From positions 30,791 through 94,790 of the forward strand of contig JAADGG010000041.1 of NCBI GenBank assembly GCA_013152485.1: DNA of 64,000 nt. Direction: 5' to 3'. This DNA comes from Nitrospirota bacterium (lineage in GTDB: Bacteria; Nitrospirota; Thermodesulfovibrionia; Thermodesulfovibrionales; JdFR-85). The notes beneath the pieces were generated by a model. That model searched no databases. It was not told the origin of the DNA and saw only the letters and a list, made by a program, of their open reading frames with translations. Positions 7,355 to 46,352 of this stretch are shown piece after piece. Position 1 is the first letter of the stretch. Each line of letters starts with the position of its first letter. Made by a program: the position numbers and the translations under genes.

Positions 7355-7602
7355 CTCCTCCAGTTCCTGATGTGTCTTACGCCGGAGTTGAACCTCTCGA
7401 GCAGTTTCTTGGCCCATACGAACTCACCGGCCAGTATTGCAAGCGAGAGGGGAATCACAACCGTTGCAGGCCCCGGAAGCACGATCAGCACGATGCCGAC
7501 CAGCAACAGGGTAAAGCCTATGACGATCTTCGTGACCCTCTTGGCCTGGGGAAGGGTCTTGACAGTCAGCCTGCTGATGAATAATTTAAGCGCCGTATTC
7601 AT
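7351..7602 (-). CDS. PGPGW-domain small membrane protein
   Basis: Two TM helices with LIVLPGPATVVIPLSLAILAGEFVWAKK (PGPGW-type motif). Confidence 0.6.
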   Translation of the reverse strand: MNTALKLFISRLTVKTLPQAKRVTKIVIGFTLLLVGIVLIVLPGPATVVIPLSLAILAGEFVWAKKLLERFNSGVRHIRNWRR

Positions 7603-7686
7603 TACGTTGATTTATTATAGAAGTAAGCGCCCGCCGAATACAAGAAAGCTACCCCGACAGCGCATGTTTGTGCTAAAATGTAAGGC

Positions 7687-8706
7687 ATGCCGTGCAGGAC
7701 AAAAGTGACCCTTTCATGCAATGACGGATCAATGAAGACATACAAGCCGATCTCCTTGAGACAGGTCAGGAGATACTCCCTGGAGGACAGAAAGAGCAAG
7801 GTAGAGGCGTCGAAGGCGGCCGGGACGTTCCCGGAGGGGGGCACATTCAAGGACTTCATCGACTCCCTGCCGGACTTTCTCGCCGCCAGGGACTTCAGGG
7901 AAGTGGTCGGCTCGATAGTGAGGGCGCGGCTGAATGACAGACCGGTTGTTCTCGCCATGGGGGCACACCCGATAAAGGTGGGGCTCTCCCCGTTGATCAT
8001 AGACCTTATACAGAAGGGCATAATCACGGCGATTGCCTCAAACGGGGCCGCCGTAATCCATGACTTCGAACTCTCCTACAGGGGAGAGACCTCCGAGGAT
8101 GTCGCATCGGAGCTCGAGGATGGGACGTTCGGGATGGCAAAGGAGACGGCGGTCATGATAAACAGGGCCATAAGGAAAGGGGCCGGGGAAGGCCTCGGCC
8201 TCGGGAGCGCGGTCGGCAGGATGATACTGAACGGACGGGGGTTTCACAACAGGAGGATGAGCATATTTGCCGAGGCGTACAGGCATTCGGTCCCGGTCAC
8301 CGTCCATGTAGCCTTGGGCACGGACATAATACACATGCACCCCGAGGCGGACGGTGAGGCCATAGGCAAGGCGAGTCTCCTCGATTTCAGGACCCTTGCA
8401 TCCGTGGTCGCCGACCTCGAGGGAGGTGTTTTCATAAACCTCGGCTCCGCTGTAATAATGCCGGAGGTCTTCCTGAAGGCGCTTACACTGGCAAGGAACC
8501 TCGGTCACGGGGTAAAGGAGATAACCACGGTAACCATGGACTTCAACAGGCATTACAGGCCCATGGAGAACGTCGTACGTCGGCCTGCCGCCTCGGGAGG
8601 CCGGGGTTACTATATCACGGGACACCACGAGATAATGTTTCCGCTCCTTGCAGGGGCGGTGAAGGAAGAGCTGTCCACGAAACAATCGGGCCTGAGAGGG
8701 ACGTAA
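7687..8706 (+). CDS. Deoxyhypusine synthase-like family protein
   Basis: VVLAMGAHPIKVGLSPLIIDLIQKGIITAIASNGAAVIHDFE resembles the DHS fold core, though the match is weak. An extended -10 (TGCTAAAAT, 7671-7679) sits 7 nt before the ATG. An alternative start is at 7732. Confidence 0.4.
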   Translation: MPCRTKVTLSCNDGSMKTYKPISLRQVRRYSLEDRKSKVEASKAAGTFPEGGTFKDFIDSLPDFLAARDFREVVGSIVRARLNDRPVVLAMGAHPIKVGLSPLIIDLIQKGIITAIASNGAAVIHDFELSYRGETSEDVASELEDGTFGMAKETAVMINRAIRKGAGEGLGLGSAVGRMILNGRGFHNRRMSIFAEAYRHSVPVTVHVALGTDIIHMHPEADGEAIGKASLLDFRTLASVVADLEGGVFINLGSAVIMPEVFLKALTLARNLGHGVKEITTVTMDFNRHYRPMENVVRRPAASGGRGYYITGHHEIMFPLLAGAVKEELSTKQSGLRGT

Positions 8707-9905
8707 TGGACATAAAGAGACTCCTGGAAGAATCCTCGCGGTATCTGATGAACACCTACAACAGATACCCCCTGATATTGAGAAAGGGGCGGGGGACCAA
8801 GGTATACAGCATAGACGGCAAGGAGTATCTCGACTTCGTCGGAGGCATAGCCGTCAACATACTCGGGCATTGCCATCCCAAGGTGGTGGTGGCGATACAG
8901 AAGCAGGCACAGAGACTCCTGCACGTCTCCAACCTCTATCAGATAGAGCCACAGATAAAGCTCGCGAAACTCCTCGTGGAAAACTCCTTTGCCGACAAGG
9001 TCTTCTTCTGCAACTCGGGGGCCGAGGCAAACGAGGGAGCGATCAAGCTCGCCAGGAAATATGCAAAGGAGCGCCATGGAGAAGAGAAGTTCGAGATAAT
9101 CACTGCGCTCAACTCGTTCCATGGACGGACACTGGCCACCCTGACGGCCACCGGACAGGAGAAGTTTCACAAGGGATTCGAGCCCCTCGTCCCGGGCTTC
9201 AGACATGTCCCGTTCAACGACATCGAAGCGTTGAGAGCCGCAGTGAACGACAGGACCTGTGCCGTAATGCTCGAGCCGATACAGGGTGAAGGCGGTGTGG
9301 TGGTCCCCTCTCACGAGTACATGAAAGGGGTACGGGAACTCTGTGATGAAAGGGGCATACTGCTGATACTCGACGAGGTCCAGACCGGGGTCGGGAGGAC
9401 CGGCAGGCTCTTCGCCTATGAGCACTTCGGCATAGAGCCCGACATAATGACACTCGCAAAGGGGCTCGGTGGCGGAGTGCCCATAGGCGCGCTGCTCGCC
9501 AGGGAAGATGTGGCCGGCGCGTTCGTCCCCGGCAGCCACGCCTCCACCTTCGGAGGCAACCCGCTCACAACCCAGGCTGCGATAGCCACTGTCGAGACGG
9601 TCCTCGAAGACGGCATCCTCCTCGAGGAGTGCAGAAGGCTGGGAAGATATTTCATGAGGCGGCTGGCGGGTCTTAAAGATTCGTTTTCGAGTATAATAGT
9701 GGATATAAGAGGAATGGGCCTCATGATCGGGATGCAACTGACCAGGGACTGCGCCCCGATAGTGAAGGCCTGCATGGAAAAAGGCGTGCTGGTCAACTGT
9801 ACCGCCAACAACACTTTGAGGTTCACACCACCGCTCATAGTGACGGAGAAGGAGATAGACACGGTGACGGATATAGTCGAAGACATACTCGCGAGGCTGT
9901 CATGA
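8706..9905 (+). CDS. argD: Acetylornithine aminotransferase
   Basis: Class-III aminotransferase motifs are present: FCNSGAEANE, FHGRT, LILDEVQTGVGRTG, TFGGNP. Confidence 0.9.
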   Translation: MDIKRLLEESSRYLMNTYNRYPLILRKGRGTKVYSIDGKEYLDFVGGIAVNILGHCHPKVVVAIQKQAQRLLHVSNLYQIEPQIKLAKLLVENSFADKVFFCNSGAEANEGAIKLARKYAKERHGEEKFEIITALNSFHGRTLATLTATGQEKFHKGFEPLVPGFRHVPFNDIEALRAAVNDRTCAVMLEPIQGEGGVVVPSHEYMKGVRELCDERGILLILDEVQTGVGRTGRLFAYEHFGIEPDIMTLAKGLGGGVPIGALLAREDVAGAFVPGSHASTFGGNPLTTQAAIATVETVLEDGILLEECRRLGRYFMRRLAGLKDSFSSIIVDIRGMGLMIGMQLTRDCAPIVKACMEKGVLVNCTANNTLRFTPPLIVTEKEIDTVTDIVEDILARLS

Positions 9906-10804
9906 AGAGAGACTTCCTCAGGCTCTGGGACTTCACCCGGGAAGAGATCGGCGATATCATCGAGAGGGCCATCGCCCTGAAGGCAGGGACCGATGCAAAC
10001 CAGTGCCCGCTGATAGGCAAGAGCCTGTGGCTGCTGTTCGAGAAACCCTCGACGAGGACACGGATATCGTTCGAGGTCGGCATCTACCAGCTCGGTGGAC
10101 AGTCCATATACATGAAGCCCTCGGAGATTCAGATCGGCAGGGGAGAAAGCACCGCCGACACTGCAAGGGTGCTGTCGAGGTATCTCGACGGCATCATCAT
10201 AAGGACCTTCGAGCACTCGAAACTCGAGGAGTTCGCCGCAAATTCCGACATTCCGGTCATAAACGGCCTGAGCGACATGCATCATCCCTGCCAGGTACTG
10301 GCCGACCTCATGACCATCAAGGAGAAGAAAGGCAGGATCGAGGGTGTAAAGGTCGCCTACATAGGAGACGGCAACAACGTGGCCAACTCCCTGATGGAGG
10401 CGGCAGGCAGGATGGGACTGTCGCTGAACATAGCCTGCCCCGAAGGTTACGAACCGGACATAAACATACTCGAAGAGGCAAGGACCGGAAAGGGGGAGAT
10501 CATCATCCTGCGGGACCCCAAGGAGGCGGCAGGCAGGGCTGACATCATCTACACCGACGTATGGGTGAGCATGGGACAGGAGGACTCCGCTGAGATGAAG
10601 AGGAAGAAGTTCATCTCCTACCAGGTCAACTCCTCGCTGCTCGCCTGCGCAAAGCAGGACGTCATCGTCATGCACTGTCTTCCCGCACACAGGGGCGAGG
10701 AGATAACCGATGATGTCATAGACGGCCCGCACAGCGTGGTCTTCGACCAGGCTGAAAACAGGCTTCACACACAGAAAGCACTTCTCGAGATGTTGATACG
10801 GTGA
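9902..10804 (+). CDS. argF: Ornithine carbamoyltransferase
   Basis: STRTR, HPCQVLAD and HCLPAHRGEE motifs are present. ATGA overlap with argD. Confidence 0.92.
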   Translation: MKRDFLRLWDFTREEIGDIIERAIALKAGTDANQCPLIGKSLWLLFEKPSTRTRISFEVGIYQLGGQSIYMKPSEIQIGRGESTADTARVLSRYLDGIIIRTFEHSKLEEFAANSDIPVINGLSDMHHPCQVLADLMTIKEKKGRIEGVKVAYIGDGNNVANSLMEAAGRMGLSLNIACPEGYEPDINILEEARTGKGEIIILRDPKEAAGRADIIYTDVWVSMGQEDSAEMKRKKFISYQVNSSLLACAKQDVIVMHCLPAHRGEEITDDVIDGPHSVVFDQAENRLHTQKALLEMLIR

Positions 10805-11010
10805 TGCAGGATCCTGCGGGCTGAAGGACGTTTCTTCATCGCCGGATTCCGACGAGACGGAACGGCTATGCCGGACGGTCGTCTGAGCGGAAAGGGACTT
10901 CAACCTGGAGTCGAGCATTCCAGACAGCCGGATACACCGAAAAGGACTGTTTTTTTGGAAGTCTTCCATCTGCAGAGATTCACGGCTGAGCCGAACAACC
11001 AGTTTGCCTT

Positions 11011-12666
11011 GTGAGCGAGCCACTTTACATAATACCACTTGGCGGCGTCGAAGAGGTGGGAGGGTTGAACATGACCGTCCTGCAATACGGCGACGACATG
11101 ATAGTCATCGACGCAGGTCTGATGTTTCCCGAGGACGAGATGCTCGGCATCGACTTCGTAATCCCGGACTTCACCTACCTGCTCGAAAACCGAGACAAGC
11201 TCAGGGCGATAATCATAACACACGGACACGAAGACCACACAGGGGCCCTACCCTTTCTCATCAGGGAACTCGACGGAACCGTACCAGTATACGGCACGCC
11301 GCTTACACTCGGCCTTCTCAGGAACAAGCTCTCCGAACACAGGATCTCAACGCCGTTTCATACCGTAAAACCGAGGGACACGGTGAGGCTCGGGGAATTC
11401 ACGGTTGAGTTCGTCCGTGTAACGCACAGCATCGTCGACGGCGTGGGACTCGGAATCAGCACGCCGTATGGGCTGGTCGTCCATACGGGCGACTTCAAGA
11501 TCGACCCGACCCCTGTAGACGGTGAACTGCTCGACTTCCACAAGTTCTCCGAATACGGCGACAGGGGAACACTGCTGCTGATGTCCGACAGCACGAACGC
11601 AGAGAAAGGAGGTTTCACGTACTCTGAAAAAGAGGTCAGGAGGGTCTTCGAGGACATCTTCTCCTCCGCACCCGGCAGGTTGATAATAGCCACATTCGCC
11701 TCCAACATACACAGAATCCAGCAGGTGATCGATGTGGCGGTGAAGTACGGAAGGAAGGTGGCCCTGTGCGGCAGAAGCATCGTATCGAACGCACAGATAG
11801 CCCTCGACCTCGGCTACCTGAGGCTTCCGGAAAAGACATGGCTGAACCTCGAAGAGATACACACGCGGCCTGACAGGGAAGTGACGATAATCACGACCGG
11901 CAGTCAGGGAGAACCGATGAGTGTTCTGTCGAGGATAGCAACCGGGGAACACAAGACCATAAAGATCGGCCCCGGAGACACCGTCGTGCTCTCCGCAAAG
12001 GTGATACCGGGCAACGAACGCTCGATCGGCAAGATAATAAATCATCTGTTCCACAGGGGGGCGAACGTGATCTACGAAAAGGTCTCCGAGGTCCACGTCT
12101 CGGGTCATGCGTCAAAGGAGGAACTGAAGCTGATGCTCAATCTCGTGAGGCCGACGTACTTCATGCCCGTACACGGCGAGTACAGACACCTCGTCTATCA
12201 CTCAAAGCTCGCCGAGAAACTGAACATTCCCAAGGAAAACATATTCATAATGCAGGATGGCGACATCCTGGAGATCAACGGCGAGGGGGCCAGGAAGAAC
12301 GGAAAGGTCCACTCCGGCAGGATATTCATCGACGGCAAAGGAGACATTGAAGATGTCGTCCTGAGGGACAGGTGGCGACTCGCCCATGACGGCATAGTGC
12401 TCGTCATCCTGTCCATGGAGAAACCGTCGGGCCGCATAACCTCGGGCCCCGACATAGTATCGAGGGGCTTCATTTTCGAGGAGGCCTCGCCGGAGGTGAT
12501 CGCCGAGGCGAAAAAAGTGGTCGCCGACACCATAACAGGGCTCGATGCCGAACTGCTCCAGGACCTCACGCTCATGAAGGCCAGGATCAGGAACACTCTC
12601 AAGAAGCATATATACAAGACCATGAATCGCAGACCCATGATAGTGCCGATCATATTTGAAATATAG
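11011..12666 (+). CDS. rnj: Ribonuclease J
   Basis: The metallo-beta-lactamase motif ITHGHEDHTGALP and the beta-CASP body are present, and the length of about 550 aa fits. GTG start. Confidence 0.9.
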   Translation: MSEPLYIIPLGGVEEVGGLNMTVLQYGDDMIVIDAGLMFPEDEMLGIDFVIPDFTYLLENRDKLRAIIITHGHEDHTGALPFLIRELDGTVPVYGTPLTLGLLRNKLSEHRISTPFHTVKPRDTVRLGEFTVEFVRVTHSIVDGVGLGISTPYGLVVHTGDFKIDPTPVDGELLDFHKFSEYGDRGTLLLMSDSTNAEKGGFTYSEKEVRRVFEDIFSSAPGRLIIATFASNIHRIQQVIDVAVKYGRKVALCGRSIVSNAQIALDLGYLRLPEKTWLNLEEIHTRPDREVTIITTGSQGEPMSVLSRIATGEHKTIKIGPGDTVVLSAKVIPGNERSIGKIINHLFHRGANVIYEKVSEVHVSGHASKEELKLMLNLVRPTYFMPVHGEYRHLVYHSKLAEKLNIPKENIFIMQDGDILEINGEGARKNGKVHSGRIFIDGKGDIEDVVLRDRWRLAHDGIVLVILSMEKPSGRITSGPDIVSRGFIFEEASPEVIAEAKKVVADTITGLDAELLQDLTLMKARIRNTLKKHIYKTMNRRPMIVPIIFEI

Positions 12667-12683
12667 GACTGATATTCTATAAT
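12655..12683 (+). promoter_or_regulatory. Sigma70-like promoter of the cytochrome operon
   Basis: TTTGAA (12655-12660), a 17-nt spacer, then TATAAT (12678-12683), 27 nt upstream of the ATG at 12711. The -10 lies inside the perfect palindrome TATAATATTATA (12678-12689). Confidence 0.45.
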
Positions 12684-12710
12684 ATTATAAATTTCAACAA
12701 AGGGGTCGGA

Positions 12711-13721
12711 ATGAAACCGAGGTTGCTGCTGATAACAGCCCTCCTGCTGGGGTTGAGCATCGTGTACGCGTGCACTGAGCTGAAGAGGTCCAAGCCAATC
12801 CTGCCGCTGAACGAGTATGAGAGGATGATAGCCGGACGTCTCGATGCCGACTATGTCGGAACCGAGACCTGCCTGGCGGCATGTCATGCCCACGACGCGA
12901 TAAAGGCCGCCTTCGACGCAAGCACAATGGGGACACAGCTGAGGAGGGAATCCGGGCTACCTCTCGTCGACTGCGAATCATGCCACGGCCCCGGGAGCCT
13001 GGCGATCAAGGGGATAACCCGGGAGCTCGTCGAGGAAAACAGCAGGAAAGGCATAAAGACGGAATGCAACTACGAGACCCTGATCGACATAAAGAACCTG
13101 CCCGCGATCGCAAAGAGCCTCATCTGTCTCAAGTGCCACACCGGCAACGCCACGTTCAACCTTCACGAATGGAACGCAGGCGTTCATGCGGTAAACGACG
13201 TCTCATGCTCAGACTGTCACGACATACACGAAGGAGCCGACCTGAAGGTGAAACCGAAGGATACGGCAGCCATGTGCCTCGACTGTCATCAGGAGATCAC
13301 GGCCTACTACAGGATGCCGAGTCACCATCCAGTGACCGAGGGAAAGGTCTACTGCACCGACTGCCACAATCCCCACGGCACGTCGACGGAGAAACTCCTC
13401 AGAAAGGCCAGTGTCAAGGAGACGTGCACCAGGTGTCACGGGGAGAAAGAAGGCCCCTTCCTCTACGAGCATGCCGATCTGACGGATGACTGCTTGAACT
13501 GCCACATGCCGCACGGCTCCCCGAACAACAATCTGCTCACCTTGAGGGAACCCTTTCTCTGCCTGCAGTGCCATCAGAGCCACAGGATAAACACCGCCAC
13601 CGGCGAACCGAAGACCACCGCATTGAAAGGGTTTTTCTTCACCAGGTGCACCAACTGCCACAGCCAGATACACGGCACCGACATACCATCGCCCGGGGGC
13701 AAGGGAAGGTTCATCCAATGA
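12711..13721 (+). CDS. Decahaem c-type cytochrome, DmsE/MtrA family-like
   Basis: Ten CxxCH motifs: CLAACH, CESCH, CLKCH, CSDCH, CLDCH, CTDCH, CTRCH, CLNCH, CLQCH, CTNCH. The N-terminal signal ends IVYAC. The C-terminal block GPFLYEH..CLNCHMPHGSPNNNLL..CLQCH..FTRCTNCHSQIHG is typical of MtrA/DmsE. Confidence 0.85.
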   Translation: MKPRLLLITALLLGLSIVYACTELKRSKPILPLNEYERMIAGRLDADYVGTETCLAACHAHDAIKAAFDASTMGTQLRRESGLPLVDCESCHGPGSLAIKGITRELVEENSRKGIKTECNYETLIDIKNLPAIAKSLICLKCHTGNATFNLHEWNAGVHAVNDVSCSDCHDIHEGADLKVKPKDTAAMCLDCHQEITAYYRMPSHHPVTEGKVYCTDCHNPHGTSTEKLLRKASVKETCTRCHGEKEGPFLYEHADLTDDCLNCHMPHGSPNNNLLTLREPFLCLQCHQSHRINTATGEPKTTALKGFFFTRCTNCHSQIHGTDIPSPGGKGRFIQ

Positions 13722-15679
13722 CCAGGAGCCGGACTGCAACAGGAAGAGGAAAGGCACGCTGCGGACTCATCGTGCTGCTCGTGATAGTGGTCCTTACCGC
13801 CCCTGCACGCGAGATACTGGCAGAGGACGGGAGCAGGCAGGCATACAGTCCCGGCTACTCCCTGGGAGCCGGATACAACTGGACCGGACTCGACGGCTCC
13901 AGAAGGGTCATAGAGTACAGCTCAGGGGTCAAGTCACCAGTCCTCGGCGCGGACATCGAGGTCTACCCCCTGCCCCACAGGCTGTATCTCGATCTCTCAA
14001 CCCGTGAAAGAGACGACCTCTACCTCGACACGGGATATGCATACAAGGAGGTCCTCCTGTCGAGATTCATTGCTCGAGGACTCACCCACAACCTCGACCA
14101 TTACGTACTGCCGGCCTCAGACCCTGATGAGGCCACGAGGAAATACAGGGACCGAGACACGAACGCTTCCTACCAGACGGACGTCACGACAACCGACCTG
14201 TTTCTCAGACTGAAGACCCCGGACTATCCTTTCCACCTCTTCGGCAGGTATTTCGGTTATGACAAGGAGGGCACCGTTCAACAGCGGTTCCTCGTGGGAT
14301 ACTTCAACGACATGACAGTAACTTCCCGGAGCAGGCGGATCGACTTCAGGACCGAGGAGCTGACCATAGGGTCGAACGGCCACTTCGGACCTCTGGAGGT
14401 GGAATACACCCATGGCGAGAAGAGTTTCGTTCCAGCCGGCCCCAAGGTTCTCGAAGACCTGTATCCCGCAACCGCTCAAAGACCAGAGGACGTATATCCA
14501 CACAACCTGGTGCCCGAAACGCGCACGTCGTCGGACTATATCAGGGCGCATTCATCCTACACGGGACGCATAACGGCCTCGGCATCGTTCGGCAGCATCA
14601 GGCAATCAAACCAGGACAGCTCCGTGGAGAGGACGATTATCGTCGGCGCCGGACAGCTGGCGTTCATCCCCATGGACGCACTCTCCTTCTTCCTCAGATT
14701 CCGTTACAGGGATCTCGATGAGGAGGGCCCCGGGACCACCGTGCTCAGGGGACAGAGCAATGAACTGGCATACAAGGTCCGCCCGTCCCTCGACACAAGA
14801 CAGAGGGAGATCTCACTGTGCATCAGGACGCGCCCATCGAGGGGCGTAAACCTTGCGGGCAGCTACTCCGTCGGCAGAAAAGACCTCTCGGACACGGAAG
14901 AGTGGTTGCTGGCCGACAGGAACACAACGGTCAACACCTTTGAGTTCAAGGCTTACGGGACGGTGTTGAAGGGAGCCAGGTTCAGGACGACCTACAAATA
15001 CACCGACCTCAAAAACCCGCTCTACAACACCGACCCGGACACCTCTCACGAACTCGATCTCTACGCAAGCTACACACTGACCCCCGGGGTCTTCACCGTT
15101 CTGACCTACAAGCTCAGGAAGGAGAGGCGCGACAACCTCAGGTTCATCAACACGCGGACGGAAACGCCTACCGAAACCGGACAGAGAGACAACACCTTCC
15201 ACAACGTACTGGGTCTCCTCGTGCTGACTCCATGGGAAAGAACATCCGTCACCGTGTCATGCGGATACTACAAGAACGGCCTGCGACAGACTCTGCTTTA
15301 CTCCACATTCCTCGGTGACGGCTCCTCTGAACCCGGGGAACCGATTGCAGAAGACGGCGTACCCTACAGTGACGAATCCACATCCTACTCTGTCGGGATA
15401 ACACACAGGTTCAACGACAGAACCGACGTCTCTGCAGACATGGGACAGACATTCTCGAAAGGCAAGTTCCGGACCGAGAATACGCTGGCCGAAAGCATAT
15501 CATCCTTCTCCATGCTGAGGGTGACGGAGACGGCCCTGTCGATAAAGGGCAGGCACGAGATGAACAACGGATTCGGCATCGAAACGGTTCTCGGTCTGAG
15601 AGACTACAACGACCGTACAGACGACCAGAACGACGGCAAATTCTATCAGGCCATGCTGATCCTGACAAAGAGGTGGTAA
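13718..15679 (+). CDS. Large outer-membrane beta-barrel, MtrB/PioB-like (cytochrome-associated porin)
   Basis: The start at the internal ATG 13718 overlaps the cytochrome stop (ATGA). It has a signal peptide (..LLVIVVLTAPAREILA), a 653-aa Tyr/Arg/Asp/Thr-rich sequence with alternating pattern, and a terminal ..LILTKRW aromatic end typical of OMPs. Confidence 0.6.
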   Translation: MTRSRTATGRGKARCGLIVLLVIVVLTAPAREILAEDGSRQAYSPGYSLGAGYNWTGLDGSRRVIEYSSGVKSPVLGADIEVYPLPHRLYLDLSTRERDDLYLDTGYAYKEVLLSRFIARGLTHNLDHYVLPASDPDEATRKYRDRDTNASYQTDVTTTDLFLRLKTPDYPFHLFGRYFGYDKEGTVQQRFLVGYFNDMTVTSRSRRIDFRTEELTIGSNGHFGPLEVEYTHGEKSFVPAGPKVLEDLYPATAQRPEDVYPHNLVPETRTSSDYIRAHSSYTGRITASASFGSIRQSNQDSSVERTIIVGAGQLAFIPMDALSFFLRFRYRDLDEEGPGTTVLRGQSNELAYKVRPSLDTRQREISLCIRTRPSRGVNLAGSYSVGRKDLSDTEEWLLADRNTTVNTFEFKAYGTVLKGARFRTTYKYTDLKNPLYNTDPDTSHELDLYASYTLTPGVFTVLTYKLRKERRDNLRFINTRTETPTETGQRDNTFHNVLGLLVLTPWERTSVTVSCGYYKNGLRQTLLYSTFLGDGSSEPGEPIAEDGVPYSDESTSYSVGITHRFNDRTDVSADMGQTFSKGKFRTENTLAESISSFSMLRVTETALSIKGRHEMNNGFGIETVLGLRDYNDRTDDQNDGKFYQAMLILTKRW

Positions 15680-40246: not shown

Positions 40247-41002
40247 TCAAAGAGTCCATGTTTCTTCTTTGAGCTTCTCTGCCGCTGCATCGAGGTTTCC
40301 CCTCAGTGTGCCGTCCAGTACATGTCCGTCTATCTTCAGCCTCACCCCTGCAATGAGGGAAGGATCCCTACGTTCGACCAGGTCGACGCTGCACTTCAGG
40401 ATATTCCGGAGGGTGGACTTTATCTCCTCGGTCTGTTCGCTGCTCAATTGCGCCGCGGAGTGGACCTCTGCAGTGCACGTGCCGTCCCTGACCGTTTCGT
40501 TGAGCCTCCTCAGCTCTTCCTCCGGAAGGTGAGCGAGCCTCTCCGTCATCATCCTCAGCAGCCTTTCCTGCAGGAAGTCGTCGGAAACATCCGACAGCAA
40601 CCTCCCGGCCATCTCTACTGCAACCGAAACAACGCGTTCCCTCATCTCCTCGAGGGCCCTCAGCTTCTCCTGCCGTATGAGCCTGACCGTCTTCTTCCGC
40701 TCCGTGTCGATCTCCTGCATCGCCTCCCTCATGATCCTTTCTCTCTCCTTGAGAGCCTCAACCCTGGCATCCTCGAGATAACCGGCCTTCACTTTCTCAA
40801 GCTTTTCAAGGCCCTCTTCATACCTCTCCTTCAGCCCGTCCACCTCCCTCCGGGTTCTTTCGATATCGTCCCTCACCGTCTTTATCTCCCTCTCGCGCTG
40901 ACGGAGGATGTCTCTCACAGGACTGAAGAGGACCCTGTAAAGGATGTAGACCACGACAACAAAGTTGACTACCTCGAATATGAACGTCCAGGGATTGAAC
41001 AT
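40247..41002 (-). CDS. atpF: ATP synthase b subunit with delta/OSCP-like C-terminal region
   Basis: An N-terminal TM helix plus long coiled coil (b-like). The C-terminal DPSLIAGVRLKIDGHVLDGTLRGNL resembles the C-terminus of delta. No separate delta gene. Confidence 0.7.
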   Translation of the reverse strand: MFNPWTFIFEVVNFVVVVYILYRVLFSPVRDILRQREREIKTVRDDIERTRREVDGLKERYEEGLEKLEKVKAGYLEDARVEALKERERIMREAMQEIDTERKKTVRLIRQEKLRALEEMRERVVSVAVEMAGRLLSDVSDDFLQERLLRMMTERLAHLPEEELRRLNETVRDGTCTAEVHSAAQLSSEQTEEIKSTLRNILKCSVDLVERRDPSLIAGVRLKIDGHVLDGTLRGNLDAAAEKLKEETWTL

Positions 41003-42390: not shown

Positions 42391-42467
42391 GGGGTGGTAG
42401 TTCAGTCGGTTAGAACGCCGGCCTGTCACGCCGGAGGTCGCGGGTTCGAGTCCCGTCCACCCCGCCA
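42391..42467 (+). tRNA. tRNA-Asp (anticodon GTC), CCA encoded
   Basis: Manual cloverleaf. Acceptor GGGGTGG/CCACCCC, D stem GTTC/GAAC, anticodon stem CCGGC/GCCGG with loop CTGTCAC, T arm GCGGG-TTCGAGT-CCCGT, discriminator G, then CCA. Confidence 0.95.
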
Positions 42468-42584
42468 CACAATCCACAACAAAACTCCCATGTTTCATAC
42501 GTACAACAAGGCATTTGCGCCTGTTCAGGGAAAAGATCCGCCCGCCCATACCCCTGACACGCCCCTCATACCACTATTCCGCAC

Positions 42585-42618
42585 AAAAGTCACCTGTTCT
42601 TTGGAACAGGTGACTTTT
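42585..42618. promoter_or_regulatory. Perfect 15-bp inverted repeat containing a lux-box-like 20-mer (alternatively a bidirectional terminator)
   Basis: aaaagtcacctgttc-tttg-gaacaggtgactttt. The core ACCTGTTCTTTGGAACAGGT (42592-42611) has the ACCTGT-N8-ACAGGT layout. It is flanked by A4 and T4 runs. Confidence 0.5.
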
Positions 42619-42758
42619 GACGGTATTTTCGTGCTCAATAAATATGAGGGGGCGGGGAAATCGTACCACCAGGCAAAAGTAACAACTGGAATTACACCGG
42701 CACTTCAGTTGACACTTTTGTATCGATCCATGAGGGTGGATTCGTCGTCAAAAACCTG

Positions 42759-43412
42759 GTGTACGATGAAGAAAGGATTCAGGCTTACCACCTCAGGCAC
42801 AGGATATTCTGCAGAGAGCTGGGGTGGGTTCCGGGGAGGGAAGATCTCCTCGAGATCGACGACTACGACGATTATGCGGTCTTCTTCGGTGTCTTCGACA
42901 GCGAGAGAAGGCTGGCGGCATACCTGCGACTCATAATGCCGGAAAAGCCGTTCATGCTGGAGAAGGAGTTCCTGTCGCTGGTCGGCCCCGGACACAAGAT
43001 CGAGAGGAGCAGAGACAGGGCGGAGATCTCGAGGCTCTGCGTGGCGCCGGAGGCGAGAAAGAGCAGAATCGCCAGCGGCTCACGCACATACGGCATCTCC
43101 ATCTTTCTCTTCAAAGGGGTCTATCATTGGTGCATCGACAAAGGCATCCGGTATCTCTATGCAGTCACCGAGGAGAAAGTCTACAGGCTTTTCTGCGCAA
43201 AAGGTTTTCCCTACAGGCTCATAGGCGAACCGACGACAATGGCCGATGGAGTGACCGCAATGGCGGTGATACTGGACTGGAGGGAGTTCGAGGAGCTGAA
43301 TTCGGCAAAACGGCCGCAGATGCTCGAATGGTTCAGTCAACGTCGATCAGACGCTGCTCGATCGCAATGGCGACGGCATGAGTCCTGGTCACGGCATCAA
43401 GCTTTTGCATGA
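42759..43412 (+). CDS. LuxI-family acyl-homoserine-lactone synthase-like protein
   Basis: LRHRIFCRELGW, EIDDYDD, AAYLRL and AEISRLCV match the conserved R/F/W, E-D-D, R and E-S-R positions of the autoinducer synthase family. GTG start with no clear SD. The frame is open upstream to 42648, so the start is uncertain. Confidence 0.7.
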   Translation: MYDEERIQAYHLRHRIFCRELGWVPGREDLLEIDDYDDYAVFFGVFDSERRLAAYLRLIMPEKPFMLEKEFLSLVGPGHKIERSRDRAEISRLCVAPEARKSRIASGSRTYGISIFLFKGVYHWCIDKGIRYLYAVTEEKVYRLFCAKGFPYRLIGEPTTMADGVTAMAVILDWREFEELNSAKRPQMLEWFSQRRSDAARSQWRRHESWSRHQAFA

Positions 43413-44091
43413 CGTTACAGACATGAAACTTGACGGTCCGTTCACTCACCCCGAGGATCCTTGATATCTCCCACGTACTCTTGCCCTCTTTCACCCACTT
43501 CAGCACTTCCTTCTCCCTCGAAGAGAGCTGTACCTGCTTTCTCTTGTTGTCCTGTTCGACAATGCGTACGAGGACCTGATGAAAATGGGGAACGACGAGG
43601 CTCAGTATGAGCTCGGTCCTCGAGTTGTGCTCCATGGAGTCTCCGGAAAGGGAGAAGAGGCTGCCCTCGGTCTCCCTGTAGTTGCGTGCACCGTGTGTAT
43701 AGCCGTCCCTGAGGCCGAAGTCTTCGGCAAGCGAGAGGAATTCCGGAGGAGGAGGACCGTATGTCTTGTATGTATCCGACCATCTCTGCAGCTTGAACCT
43801 GGAGAAGTTTTCCTTGGCGACGGGATCTATCTCCTGATATCTCCTCGCAATATAGATGTCGATCCACTCGACTGGATAATTTATGTTTACGGGATTATGG
43901 AACTTCACAACGCCGTCCGCCTCCCTCTTTCCAAGCAGGCAGATGGCAAAATCGTAAGGGACCAGACACCTGAGTATACCCATGAGTCCGGCGAGGTCCT
44001 CTCTCGAACTGCACGAAAGGCTTCTGTGGATCAGATCCAGAAGAGAGAAGACGTCCTTTTTGGACAGCCAGCGTGTAAGCCCTGATATCAT
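43333..44091 (-). CDS. LuxR-family regulator (autoinducer-binding domain + GerE-type HTH)
   Basis: The N-terminal domain has WIDIYIARRYQEIDPV (W/Y/D ligand-pocket pattern). The C-terminal is LSSREKEVLKWVKEGKSTWEISRILGVSERTVKFH. AGGAGG lies upstream. Confidence 0.85.
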   Translation of the reverse strand: MISGLTRWLSKKDVFSLLDLIHRSLSCSSREDLAGLMGILRCLVPYDFAICLLGKREADGVVKFHNPVNINYPVEWIDIYIARRYQEIDPVAKENFSRFKLQRWSDTYKTYGPPPPEFLSLAEDFGLRDGYTHGARNYRETEGSLFSLSGDSMEHNSRTELILSLVVPHFHQVLVRIVEQDNKRKQVQLSSREKEVLKWVKEGKSTWEISRILGVSERTVKFHVCNVMQKLDAVTRTHAVAIAIEQRLIDVD

Positions 44092-44855: not shown

Positions 44856-45119
44856 TTATTCCCTGTCCTTGTCCTTCCTGATGCCTTTCATGAGCAGTCT
44901 GTACTTCTCCTCCCCGACACATTCCTTTGCAGCAGGGCACCACTCGAGACACGTGGGCTTCATCTCTCTCGTAACAACCCTTCCGCAATCATCACAGAGG
45001 GCCTCTGTCTCGTCTGACCATATTTCAACCTTGTTGCCGCAGAAGACACAGACGATCTCCTCGGGAAAGGGATTCTTTATCTCTTTGCTGCCAGGGCATC
45101 CTTCCTTCAAGTTGCTCAT
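44856..45119 (-). CDS. Small Cys-rich zinc-ribbon-like protein
   Basis: CVFCGN..(14)..CDDCG plus CLEWCPAAKEC, 87 aa. It lies 51 nt downstream of the HD-GYP regulator on the same strand. Confidence 0.5.
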   Translation of the reverse strand: MSNLKEGCPGSKEIKNPFPEEIVCVFCGNKVEIWSDETEALCDDCGRVVTREMKPTCLEWCPAAKECVGEEKYRLLMKGIRKDKDRE

Positions 45120-45170: not shown

Positions 45171-46352
45171 TCACACATCATAACGCCTCGTGCCTCCGTA
45201 ATCCCGGTGAGCATCGTAAATCTCCCTGAACATCCTGGCCGAGTCCTTGAAAGCCTCGAGCACATGCGGGTCGAAATGTTCGGGCCTGGTCCTCGTATCA
45301 CCGACGGTCAGTATGTTTACGACACTCTCGTGATCCAGCACGGGCTTGTAGGGCCGCCTGCTCCTCAGTGCATCATACTGGTCGACGATGTTCATTATCC
45401 TCCCGGATACCGGAATCTCTTCCCCCATCAGACCGTTCGGATAGCCGCCGCCGCTCCACCTTTCGTGATGGGTGAGGGCTATCTCCTCGGCCATCTTCAG
45501 ATAGGGGGACTTCGAGTTGCTCAGGATCTTTGCTCCTATGACGGTATGGGTCTTGACCAACTCCCATTCCTCGGGCGTGAGCCCCTCCTGCTTGAGAAGG
45601 ACACGGTCTGGAACACCCACCTTGCCGATGTCGTGCATCGGCGAGGCGTAGTAGATGGTCTCGATATATTCCTTGCTCATGCCGAGAGCAGATGCGAGCT
45701 CCTTTGCGTACAGACTGATCCTCTTTATGTGGGCGCCGCTGTCTTCGTCCTTGTACTCAGAGGCGAGGGTAAGGCGGTAAACCGTCTCCACATAGCCCGT
45801 CTTGATCCTCCTGTAGACCTTCTCAAGCCTCTCGAAGGCCCACTCGAGGGCTTTTATCCTCGTCGCCACCTGTTCCTCGAGCACCTGTTTGTGCTCTCTG
45901 AGAAAGTCGCGGCACTCCTTGAGCTTCAGCAGGTTCTTCACCCTGAGCGTAAACTCGATTGAGTCGAACGGCTTTACGAGAAAGTCGTCAACCCCCTTTG
46001 CAATGCCTGCCCGTCGTTCCAACGGGGAATCACAGACTGAAAGGACAACGATCGGAATGTGTTCGGTCAGCTCACTGGACTTCAGCCTCTCCACGATCTC
46101 GAATCCGTTCATGCCCCGCATGGTTACATTCATGAGGATAAGGTCCGGCAGGTACTGGAGAGTATGTTCAAACGTCTCATAGGCATCCTTCGCCACTATG
46201 GTTTCATAACCGTGGTCTTCACAGAATGCCTTCAAGAGCTTCACGTCCTTTTCATCATCGTCAACAATGAGGACCCTGAATACCTTCTCCCTATGGTTCA
46301 ATCCTGTTTTCACTATCCCCCCCTCAAAGGATCTCTTAGAAAGTTCACGCAC
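45171..46352 (-). CDS. Response regulator with HD-GYP phosphodiesterase domain (RpfG family)
   Basis: The receiver has [19 protein letters not shown]. The output domain has HDIGK and [14 protein letters not shown]. Confidence 0.9.

What the first reader, a model, noticed from the sequence alone, without database searches (positions are those of the whole stretch)
42391..44091. LuxI/LuxR-type quorum-sensing pair beside tRNA-Asp, with an 80-nt convergent overlap
Seen in sequence:
- A 217-aa ORF carries the conserved LuxI-family positions (RxxxF..LGW, E.DxYD, RL, ExSRL).
- A 252-aa convergent ORF has an autoinducer-binding-type N-domain plus a GerE HTH.
- Their 3' ends overlap over 43333-43412.
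- The synthase has a GTG start without an SD, about 10 residues short of typical LuxI N-termini. Its frame is open upstream to 42648.

Inference: this is a functional acyl-HSL-type circuit in a lineage where such circuits are uncommon. The overlap allows antisense or transcriptional-interference control. The location next to a tRNA hints at horizontal acquisition, although no integrase is present.

Alternative: the synthase belongs to the related exosortase-associated N-acyl amino acid synthase family (TIGR03694).
Basis: partly seen in the sequence, partly recalled or inferred. Interest (0 to 1): 0.55.

Follow-up and report, generated by a model that had tools for sequence, protein, structure and literature searches.

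The report
CviI/CviR-type AHL quorum-sensing pair, Nitrospirota
This is very probably a working acyl-homoserine-lactone quorum-sensing gene pair of the Chromobacterium CviI/CviR type in an uncultured Nitrospirota bacterium; the design is already known, and its one odd detail is a signal-synthase gene that starts at a rare AUC codon, which gene finders miss.

Summary
tRNA-Asp lies at 42391-42467, a LuxI-like ORF on the + strand ends at 43412, and a 252-aa LuxR ORF lies at 43333-44091 on the - strand, so the 3' overlap is 80 nt.

The 217-aa GTG-start synthase is an ORF-calling artefact. The real gene is 42660-43412 (250 aa) and starts at ATC, 7 nt after a GAGGGGG Shine-Dalgarno sequence. Five related lineages have ATC or ATA there and a sister lineage has ATG.

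The evidence favours an AHL circuit over an exosortase-type N-acyl amino acid synthase:
- The synthase scores 65 bits on PF00765 (cutoff 24). TIGR03694 scores 73 bits, below its cutoff of 112.
- Its best sequence and fold matches are AHL synthases.
- The regulator is most like CviR, and its AHL-pocket residues are intact.
- A perfect lux box (ACCTGT-N8-ACAGGT, 42592-42611) lies upstream of the synthase here and in at least 12 other loci.

The 80-nt convergent overlap recurs in 18 of 31 loci across phyla. Chromobacterium csuI/csuR has the same 80-bp overlap. tRNA-Asp adjacency is conserved synteny, not evidence of recent transfer.

Verdict: a new member of a known kind, of modest interest. AHL production itself is untested.

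The parts
42391..42467 (+). tRNA-Asp (GTC). It is the conserved upstream neighbour of the cassette in this sub-clade.
   Evidence: ARAGORN. tRNA-Asp is also upstream of the pair in L033, L026 and L001.
42584..42619 (.). 16-bp-stem palindrome holding a perfect lux-type box, ACCTGT-N8-ACAGGT (core 42592-42611; the inner 16 bp are CTG-N10-CAG, as in the CviR box). It is the probable LuxR operator for the synthase promoter. It probably also acts as the tRNA-Asp terminator or as an insulator.
   Evidence: It is the only exact match in the 64-kb window. Perfect or near-perfect boxes lie 53-93 nt upstream of the synthase start in about 20 loci, including L001, where the region is divergent and a terminator makes no sense. 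The terminator scan also flags it, and the RNA hairpin has z = -4.9.
42646..42657 (+). G-rich Shine-Dalgarno tract (GAGGGGGCGGGG). The GAGGGGG part ends 7 nt before the ATC start.
   Evidence: Read directly from the sequence. The same tract and spacing precede ATA, ATC or ATG starts in L001, L004, L033, L047, L048 and L049.
42660..43412 (+). LuxI-family acyl-homoserine-lactone synthase gene, 250 aa, with a non-canonical ATC start.
   Evidence: Upstream frame aligns with homologue N-termini (A1). PF00765 scores 65.4 bits. PDB sequence hits are AHL synthases only. The AlphaFold model has pLDDT 88.8, and its top 10 fold matches are AHL synthases. The LuxI residues R, F, W, E-D-YD, R and E-SR are invariant in the clade.
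43333..43412 (.). 80-nt convergent 3' overlap. It encodes the last 25 residues (plus part of residue 225) of the synthase tail, which is predicted to be disordered, and on the other strand the last 25 residues (plus part of residue 227) of the LuxR HTH domain.
   Evidence: exactly 80 nt in 18 of 31 paired loci. The tail has pLDDT about 50. The tail frame stays open more often than synonymous resampling predicts.
43333..44091 (-). CviR-like LuxR-family AHL receptor and transcription factor, 252 aa. The autoinducer-binding domain maps to about 43576-43887 and the GerE HTH to about 43363-43530.
   Evidence: PF03472 78 bits and PF00196 73.5 bits. Best solved homologue is CviR, E = 7e-36 over residues 9-244, with the pocket residues conserved. 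These residues are conserved across the family. The identical protein is in NCBI as a Nitrospirae MAG LuxR-family regulator.

Best explanation

How it probably works:
1. The 250-aa LuxI-family enzyme (42660-43412) makes an acyl-HSL from S-adenosylmethionine and an acyl-ACP or acyl-CoA.
2. The convergent 252-aa CviR-like LuxR (43333-44091) binds that signal in a canonical pocket and dimerises.
3. The dimer binds the ACCTGT-N8-ACAGGT palindrome, centred 58 nt upstream of the synthase start, and activates synthase transcription. This is positive feedback.

Three features probably keep basal output low:
- a weak AUC initiation codon behind a strong Shine-Dalgarno sequence;
- the operator hairpin, which also stops read-through from tRNA-Asp;
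- the conserved 80-nt convergent overlap with no terminator between the genes, so induced synthase transcription runs antisense into luxR and could damp receptor expression.

Shown here: the domain and fold assignments, residue conservation, conservation of the operator and of the overlap, and the position of the start site.

Inferred: AHL chemistry, activation rather than repression, the effect of the AUC start, and any antisense or interference effect.
For: Synthase:
- PF00765 scores 65 bits against a gathering cutoff of 24.
- The only PDB sequence hits are the AHL synthases TofI, BjaI, RpaI, LasI and EsaI.
- The model has pLDDT 88.8. Its top 10 Foldseek hits are all AHL synthases (E = 1.5e-12 to 4e-10), while FeeM reaches only 2e-7.
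- The LuxI signature residues are invariant across 67 clade members, including the Trp of 'LGW'. That Trp is replaced in the true TIGR03694 proteins I recovered.

Regulator:
- PF03472 and GerE are both present.
- CviR is the best solved homologue (126.8 bits, E = 7e-36, full length).
- CviR residues Y80, W84, Y88, D97, P98, W111 and S155 are matched by Y72, W76, Y80, D89, P90, W104 and S147.
- D89 is invariant, and W76, Y80 and W104 are conserved in at least 90% of 38 clade LuxRs.

Operator:
- It is the only exact ACCTGT-N8-ACAGGT in the 64-kb window.
- A perfect box occurs in 13 further loci and a box with 1-2 mismatches in 5 more, 53-93 nt upstream of the start. A sub-clade carries a variant, ACCTACCC-N4-GGGTAG[GC]T.

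Architecture:
- The 80-nt overlap is identical in 18 of 31 loci from Nitrospirota, Geobacteraceae, Desulfovibrio and Thermodesulfobacteriota.
- Chromobacterium csuI/csuR has an 80-bp convergent overlap and a palindrome upstream of csuI, with positive feedback (PMC12114271).

Start site:
- GAGGGGG plus 7 nt precedes ATC or ATA in five lineages; the sister lineage L048 has ATG after the same tract (9 nt). The NCBI record for L001 uses the ATA start.

Precedent: AHL production by Nitrospirota is documented (PMC5767232; PMC6478669).
Against: - No chemistry or expression data exist for this locus or for any proven member of this exact clade. I could not obtain the AubI, NmoI, NjpI or CviI sequences to place them.
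- The top NCBIfam hits are nominally the exosortase-associated families for both proteins (TIGR03694 at 73.2 bits vs TraI at 65.2; TIGR03020 EpsA at 101 vs SdiA at 88). All are below their cutoffs.
- The synthase has no canonical start codon, so it may be translated poorly or not at all.
- The operator could serve mainly as a terminator, since it is followed by T-rich sequence in many loci.
- No other box occurs in the window, so no regulon target is identified.
Confidence: 0.8

Rival explanations
1. The enzyme is an exosortase/PEP-CTERM-type long-chain N-acyl amino acid synthase (TIGR03694-like). It is paired with an EpsA-like regulator that controls exopolysaccharide production, and it is not an AHL system.
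For: TIGR03694 is the top NCBIfam hit for the synthase (73.2 bits vs 65.2 for TraI). TIGR03020 EpsA is the top hit for the regulator (101.3 vs 87.6 for SdiA). JGI names some clade members 'N-acyl amino acid synthase of PEP-CTERM/exosortase system'.
Against: - Both scores are far below the trusted cutoffs (111.95 and 170).
- Other clade members score higher on TraI than on TIGR03694 (P0102, P0019, P0078).
- True TIGR03694 proteins (L037-L039) score 110-162 bits, have no adjacent LuxR, show no or weak PF00765 (none, none and 39 bits, against 65 for this clade), and lack the LGW tryptophan.
- FeeM is a much weaker fold match than the AHL synthases.
- The receptor keeps every residue that contacts the homoserine-lactone head group in CviR.
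- The immediate neighbours are atp genes, a TPR lipoprotein, a response regulator with an HD domain, and acs. None is an exosortase gene.
Confidence: 0.07
2. The synthase is a decaying or silent gene because it has no ATG, GTG or TTG start, and the LuxR acts as a solo receptor that eavesdrops on foreign AHLs.
For: The frame holds no canonical start codon before residue 34. Gene callers truncate the gene: P0001 to 217 aa, P0002 to 218 aa and P0003 to 229 aa. One relative, L035, does appear disrupted.
Against: - The same ATC or ATA start after an intact SD is kept in five diverged lineages (68-80% amino-acid identity), with an uninterrupted 250-codon frame and a conserved N-terminal peptide.
- All catalytic-motif residues are intact.
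- The operator is perfect.
- The tail frame is kept open.
Confidence: 0.06
3. It is a genuine LuxI/LuxR circuit, but the signal is a non-standard homoserine lactone, for example one derived from a CoA-linked branched, aryl or unsaturated acyl group. The clade would then be a third branch between classical LuxI and TIGR03694.
For: HMM scores sit between the TraI-type and TIGR03694 models. The CoA-dependent synthases BjaI, RpaI and MesI are among the best sequence and fold matches. The enzyme has an extra N-terminal segment of about 23 residues and two extra ordered C-terminal helices (207-226) compared with solved LuxI enzymes.
Against: The best single match is the ACP-dependent C8-HSL synthase TofI. 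The architecture matches CviI/CviR, which uses ordinary C6/C10-HSL. Nitrospirota systems studied so far make ordinary C8-C14 AHLs. Substrate class cannot be read from these data.
Confidence: 0.15

Closest known systems
CviI/CviR (CsuI/CsuR) of Chromobacterium violaceum and C. subtsugae
   Same: - Synthase and receptor are transcribed convergently, with an 80-bp 3' overlap.
- A palindromic CTG-N10-CAG operator lies upstream of the synthase and gives positive feedback (PMC12114271).
- CviR is the best solved homologue of this regulator over its full length, and the ligand-contact residues are conserved.
- JGI's KEGG-style annotation calls many clade LuxRs 'CviR'.
   Different: - The host is Nitrospirota, not Betaproteobacteria.
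- Identity to CviR is only about 29%.
- The operator half-sites are the longer lux-box type (ACCTGT/ACAGGT), not CTGNCC/GGNCAG.
- The synthase uses an AUC start.
- The operator doubles as a hairpin after a tRNA gene.
- Orthology of the synthase to CviI was not tested, because no sequence was available.
R2 topology of AHL circuits (convergent, overlapping luxR/luxI; for example the G. uraniireducens Rf4 pair)
   Same: Convergent luxR/luxI with overlapping 3' ends. Gelencser et al. report overlaps of 2-79 bp in 53 proteobacterial genomes and suggest mutual antagonism (PMC3386692). The G. uraniireducens Rf4 pair (L002) belongs to this same clade: 49% identity, an 80-nt overlap and a box with 2 mismatches.
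   Different: That survey covered only Proteobacteria. Here the same cassette is found in Nitrospirota, and the overlap length is fixed at 80 nt across phyla.
Nitrospirota AHL systems: AubI/AubR (metagenomic clone), NjpI/NjpR (N. japonica), N. moscoviensis LuxI
   Same: These are LuxI/LuxR pairs from the same phylum with AHL production demonstrated: C12-HSL for Aub and C10-C14 for NJ1 (PMC5767232; PMC6478669).
   Different: Whether they fall in this clade is untested. The present lineage groups with hydrothermal and subsurface Nitrospirae MAGs rather than with nitrite-oxidising Nitrospira.
TIGR03694 PEP-CTERM/exosortase-associated N-acyl amino acid synthases, and FeeM
   Same: Same GNAT/LuxI superfamily fold. 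The R..F, E.D.YD, R and E.SR motifs are shared.
   Different: - This clade scores below the family cutoff.
- It keeps the LuxI tryptophan.
- It is always paired with an AHL-type LuxR.
- It scores much better on PF00765.

Membership tests
LuxI-type AHL synthase (Pfam PF00765 Autoind_synth) | Score above the Pfam gathering threshold | tested here: met
   65.1-65.4 bits against a cutoff of 24.
LuxI-type AHL synthase (Pfam PF00765 Autoind_synth) | Conserved N-terminal and active-site residues (R, F, W of 'R..F..LGW'; E.D.YD; R; E.SR) | tested here: met
   They align to the same residues in TofI. R46, W56, E65, D67, Y69, D70, R90, E122 and R125 are invariant, and F50 and S124 are at least 90% conserved, in 67 clade members.
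LuxI-type AHL synthase (Pfam PF00765 Autoind_synth) | LuxI fold, closest to solved AHL synthases | tested here: met
   The model has pLDDT 88.8. Foldseek ranks 1-10 are TofI, BjaI, RpaI, LasI and MesI (E = 1.5e-12 to 4e-10). FeeM reaches 2e-7.
LuxI-type AHL synthase (Pfam PF00765 Autoind_synth) | Produces an acyl-homoserine lactone | not testable with these tools
   Requires expression and LC-MS/MS or biosensor assays.
NCBIfam TraI-type AHL synthase (NF010408 / NF052393) | Score above the curated cutoff | tested here: not met
   65.2 and 58.3 bits against cutoffs of 292 and 250. It is not a TraI orthologue, and none was expected.
TIGR03694 PEP-CTERM/exosortase-associated acyltransferase | Score above the curated cutoff (111.95 bits) | tested here: not met
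   73.2 bits for this protein and 54-68 bits for five other clade members. Three recovered TIGR03694-type proteins score 110, 130 and 162 bits; the first of these falls just under the cutoff.
TIGR03694 PEP-CTERM/exosortase-associated acyltransferase | Genomic association with exosortase/PEP-CTERM genes rather than with an AHL-type LuxR | tested here: inconclusive
   Every complete clade locus has an adjacent AHL-type LuxR, and the true TIGR03694 loci have none. The neighbours scanned here are not exosortase genes. The rest of the window and the genome were not scanned.
Quorum-sensing LuxR (AHL receptor) | PF03472 autoinducer-binding domain plus PF00196 GerE HTH | tested here: met
   78.2 and 73.5 bits, against cutoffs of 23 and 23.5.
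Quorum-sensing LuxR (AHL receptor) | Conserved ligand-pocket residues (TraR Y53, W57, Y61, D70, P71, W85, G113; CviR Y80, W84, Y88, D97, P98, W111, S155) | tested here: met
   Y72, W76, Y80, D89, P90, W104 and S147 align to the CviR residues. D89 is invariant, and W76, Y80 and W104 are at least 90% conserved in the clade.
Quorum-sensing LuxR (AHL receptor) | Binds an AHL and a lux-type box | not testable with these tools
   A conserved candidate box exists, but binding needs EMSA, footprinting or reporter assays.
TIGR03020 EpsA (XrtB/PEP-CTERM-associated regulator) | Score above the curated cutoff (170 bits) | tested here: not met
   101.3 bits.
CviI/CviR-type (R2) cassette architecture | Convergent synthase and receptor with an overlap of about 80 bp, and a palindromic operator upstream of the synthase | tested here: met
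   80-nt overlap. The box at 42592-42611 contains CTG-N10-CAG. The Chromobacterium description is in PMC12114271.
CviI/CviR-type (R2) cassette architecture | Synthase orthologous to CviI | not tested

The most novel reading that the evidence does not exclude
This cassette may represent a distinct, cross-phylum branch of the LuxI superfamily, lying between classical AHL synthases and exosortase-type N-acyl amino acid synthases. On this reading it has hard-wired noise suppression: a conserved non-AUG (AUC/AUA) start, an operator that is also an insulating terminator, and a selected 80-nt antisense overlap that encodes a disordered tail. In hydrothermal, anaerobic Nitrospirota it would make a signal other than an ordinary straight-chain AHL.
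Probability: 0.12. Interest if true: 0.6.

Novelty: new member of a known kind. Interest (0 to 1): 0.3.

Why it matters
- It adds a well-resolved example of AHL-type quorum sensing outside the Proteobacteria. The host lineage consists of uncultured, partly hydrothermal Nitrospirota.
- It shows that the CviI/CviR cassette design (80-nt convergent overlap plus an autoregulatory palindrome) is shared across at least three phyla, which implies that the pair moves as a unit.
- A practical point: in this sub-clade the synthase starts at AUC or AUA. Automatic annotation therefore truncates the gene, and apparently omits it from the NCBI record of this MAG. Surveys could then score such genomes as carrying a 'LuxR solo'.
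- The biology itself is expected rather than surprising.

Tried and rejected
1. **Assembly frameshift in the GGGGG run (42648-52) joining ATG 42644 to the gene.** Rejected. The same out-of-frame ATGA or GTGA arrangement recurs in five independent assemblies. L048 shows that the SD-proximal codon is the start.
2. **Leaderless ATG 42644 plus a +1 frameshift, or a regulatory uORF.** Not excluded, but less parsimonious. Left as a note.
3. **Extra amino-acid-level constraint on the overlap-encoded synthase tail.** LuxR third-position entropy is 1.31 in the overlap and 1.40 outside it, so there is no signal. Only the openness of the frame appears to be selected.
4. **Palindrome as a tRNA terminator only.** Rejected as the sole role. 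The specific half-site sequence is conserved in loci without a tRNA and in a divergent intergenic region.
5. **More boxes or paralogues in the window.** None found.
6. **Placing AubI, NmoI, NjpI or CviI in the clade.** Not possible. The source papers were not held and no sequences were in the supplements.
7. **Exact-sequence contig look-ups for the window's own proteins.** Nothing on record.
8. **Technical failures.** One search used bad coordinates and timed out. Both were redone.
Full report
**Observation**

- ORF 42759..43412 (+, GTG, 217 aa) and ORF 43333..44091 (-, ATG, 252 aa) overlap by 80 nt, over 43333-43412.
- tRNA-Asp(GTC) lies at 42391-42467 on the + strand.
- The + strand ORF scores 65 bits on PF00765 Autoind_synth (gathering cutoff 24).
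- The - strand ORF scores 78 bits on PF03472 Autoind_bind and 73.5 bits on PF00196 GerE.
- G+C across the pair (0.53-0.54) is not distinct from the surrounding window (0.52-0.58).

**The true synthase gene**

Homologues are almost all 248-252 aa. The frame upstream of the GTG (42651-42758) aligns residue for residue with their N-termini (alignment A1). That frame opens after a TGA at 42645-47 and has no ATG, GTG or TTG before 42759.

At 42660 there is an ATC, 7 nt after GAGGGGG. The same layout occurs in related Nitrospirota genomes:

| Locus | Codon at the equivalent position |
|---|---|
| window | ATC |
| L033 / L049 | ATC |
| L001 | ATA |
| L004 | ATA |
| L047 | ATA |
| L048 (sister lineage) | ATG |
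| all more distant members | ATG after GGAGG-like SDs |

The NCBI record behind L001 actually calls the ATA as the start: P0004, 249 aa, gene 10001-10750.

I therefore place the CDS at 42660..43412 (250 aa). The GTG start, the missing SD and the short N-terminus all follow from a 'first canonical start' ORF rule. JGI and other gene callers made the same mistake (P0001 217 aa, P0002 218 aa, P0003 229 aa).

A homopolymer assembly error was considered and rejected, because five independent assemblies share the arrangement.

**AHL synthase or exosortase-type N-acyl amino acid synthase?**

NCBIfam puts TIGR03694 nominally first (73.2 bits) and TraI second (65.2 bits). Both are far below their cutoffs (111.95 and 292). 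Within the clade the order flips for P0102, P0019 and P0078.

True TIGR03694 proteins, recovered as distant hits (L037-L039), differ in four ways:
- They score 110-162 bits on TIGR03694.
- They have no neighbouring LuxR.
- They have no PF00765 hit, or only a weak one: none, none and 39 bits, against 65 for this clade.
- They have R or Y in place of the LuxI tryptophan in 'ELGW'. That tryptophan is invariant in 67 clade members, as are R46, E65, D67, Y69, D70, R90, E122 and R125.

Against the PDB, the sequence matches only AHL synthases: TofI, BjaI, RpaI, LasI and EsaI. An AlphaFold model is confident (pLDDT 88.8, pTM 0.83). Its ten best Foldseek matches are AHL synthases (E = 1.5e-12 to 4e-10). 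FeeM, the only solved N-acyl amino acid synthase, appears at 2e-7.

**The receptor**

The best solved homologue is CviR of Chromobacterium (126.8 bits, E = 7e-36, residues 9-244; about 29% identity). The CviR residues that hold the lactone and amide are matched as follows:

| CviR | This protein |
|---|---|
| Y80 | Y72 |
| W84 | W76 |
| Y88 | Y80 |
| D97 | D89 |
| P98 | P90 |
| W111 | W104 |
| S155 | S147 |

In 38 clade LuxRs, D89 is invariant and W76, Y80 and W104 are at least 90% conserved. TIGR03020 EpsA is the top NCBIfam hit (101 bits) but is below its cutoff of 170.

Positions 42584-42619 form a 16-bp-stem palindrome whose core, 42592-42611, is ACCTGTTCTTTGGAACAGGT. It is the only exact ACCTGT-N8-ACAGGT in the window.
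- The same 12 specified bases occur perfectly in L004, L007-L013, L019, L025, L033/L049, L047 and L048.
- They occur with 1-2 mismatches in L001, L002, L005, L030 and L031.
- In all these loci the box lies 53-93 nt before the synthase start.
- A sub-clade carries ACCTACCC-N4-GGGTAG[GC]T instead.
- In L001 the box lies in a divergent intergenic region where a terminator has no role.

What is conserved is the sequence of the half-sites, not merely their ability to pair, which indicates a protein-binding site. From my own knowledge, this is the half-site pattern and spacing of the V. fischeri lux box. Its inner 16 bp fit the CTG-N10-CAG frame of the published CviR box, CTGNCCNNNNGGNCAG (PMC12114271).

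In this window the hairpin is also a credible intrinsic terminator for tRNA-Asp, and T-rich sequence follows the box in many loci. A dual role as operator and insulator is likely, but that is inference.

**The overlap**

Of 31 loci with both genes, 18 overlap by exactly 80 nt and 23 by at least 77 nt. They span Nitrospirota, Geobacteraceae (including G. uraniireducens Rf4), Desulfovibrio and Thermodesulfobacteriota.

I resampled synonymous codons for the last 27 luxR codons, using each gene's own codon usage. The synthase tail frame then stayed open to at least 80 nt in only 27% of trials on average, and ended at exactly 80 nt in 18%. The read-through is therefore maintained. One caveat: the null was computed on the 18 loci that have the 80-nt overlap, and the loci are phylogenetically related.

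LuxR third positions are as variable inside the overlap as outside it (1.31 vs 1.40 bits). The tail (about residues 227-250) is predicted to be disordered (pLDDT about 50). What is selected therefore seems to be translation through the overlap, or the overlap itself, rather than a specific tail sequence.

The design is not new. Gelencser et al. describe the convergent overlapping 'R2' topology (2-79 bp, 53 proteobacterial genomes) and propose mutual antagonism (PMC3386692). Chromobacterium csuI/csuR overlap by 80 bp (PMC12114271). No convincing terminator lies between the genes.

**Context and origin**
- The identical LuxR is deposited as a Nitrospirae MAG protein on a 130,914-bp contig (P0121).
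- Left of the cassette is the atp operon, and right of it are a TPR lipoprotein, a small Cys-rich ORF, a response regulator with an HD_5 domain, and acs.
- The right flank is syntenic in L001, L047, L048 and L049.
- tRNA-Asp is upstream in L033, L026 and L001 as well. The tRNA is therefore an inherited neighbour, not evidence of recent insertion.
- In G. uraniireducens the pair sits among integrase, IS91, IS1595, IS110 and group II intron genes. Together with the cross-phylum distribution, this points to horizontal spread of the cassette as a unit over longer timescales.

**Mechanism, and how much of it is shown**

Shown:
- the identities of both proteins at domain, residue and fold level;
- the start site, by comparative evidence;
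- a conserved operator upstream of the synthase;
- a conserved and maintained overlap.

Inferred:
- that the product is an acyl-HSL;
- that ligand-bound LuxR activates the synthase promoter (positive feedback, as in CviR);
- that AUC/AUA initiation lowers basal synthase levels;
- that convergent transcription through the overlap damps luxR.

No regulon target beyond the synthase was found in the window.

**Novelty and score**

AHL quorum sensing is already documented in Nitrospirota: AubI/AubR with C12-HSL, N. japonica NjpI/NjpR with C10-C14 AHLs, and N. moscoviensis (PMC5767232; PMC6478669). The G. uraniireducens member of this clade has been noted in genomic surveys. Many clade members are already named 'acyl-homoserine-lactone synthase' by NCBI.

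This is a new member of a known kind. The minor new points are the sub-clade-specific non-AUG start, which causes mis-annotation; the operator that doubles as a terminator; and the evidence that the 80-nt overlap is actively maintained across phyla. Interest is about 0.3.

Noticed in passing
window 42644-42682: An out-of-frame ATG overlaps the TGA that closes the upstream frame (ATGA). It opens a 12-codon ORF (MRGRGNRTTRQK*) that runs across the SD and the ATC start. The same ATGA or GTGA plus short ORF is present in L001, L004, L033/L049 and L047, and in L048 it is in frame with the gene. Adding 42.5 nt to the box centre lands exactly on this ATG (42644). A leaderless uORF or a +1 frameshift is not excluded.
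   Followed up: partly
window 42660-43412; P0001, P0002, P0003: Gene callers truncate this synthase: JGI to 217 and 218 aa, and a third record (P0003) to 229 aa. The exact protein appears only from JGI, whereas the LuxR next to it is also in NCBI. The NCBI record of this MAG therefore probably lacks the synthase, which would make the LuxR look like a solo.
   Followed up: partly
window 40247-41002 (-): A single 251-aa ORF carries both ATP-synt_B (residues 6-136) and the C-terminal part of OSCP/delta (residues 155-244). This is a fused b-delta subunit within the atp operon.
   Followed up: no
L002 (G. uraniireducens Rf4, CP000698) 7591-14857: The orthologous LuxI/LuxR pair is flanked by a phage-type integrase, IS91-family Y2 transposase, group II intron maturase, and IS1595 and IS110 transposases. 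This looks like a mobile-element island, unlike the Nitrospirota loci.
   Followed up: no
L035 6001-6420 and 6613-7347: In this deltaproteobacterial MAG the synthase frame ends early: it aligns only to residues 21-159, and a 192-nt gap separates it from luxR, while the LuxR is intact. This may be a decayed synthase or an assembly error.
   Followed up: no
L005 (JALUWC010000331.1, 2009 bp): A complete bacterial-type LuxI/LuxR pair, with the 80-nt overlap and a box, sits on a 2-kb contig binned as the archaeon 'Geoglobus sp.'. This is most likely a binning contaminant.
   Followed up: no
window 44856-45119 (-) and 45171-46352 (-): An 87-aa Cys-rich ORF with no Pfam hit and a response regulator with an HD_5 (HD-GYP-like) domain lie just beyond the TPR lipoprotein gene (probable start 44240). 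ORFs of 83-89 aa occupy the same position in L001, L047, L048 and L049, and the response regulator with an HD domain is also present in L001. They could be conserved neighbours or outputs of the circuit; no box was found near them.
   Followed up: partly
L015, L016, L020, L023, L032, L035 (upstream of the synthase): One sub-clade replaces the ACCTGT-N8-ACAGGT box with ACCTACCC-N4-GGGTAGGT. This suggests that operator and LuxR specificity have co-evolved within the family.
   Followed up: partly
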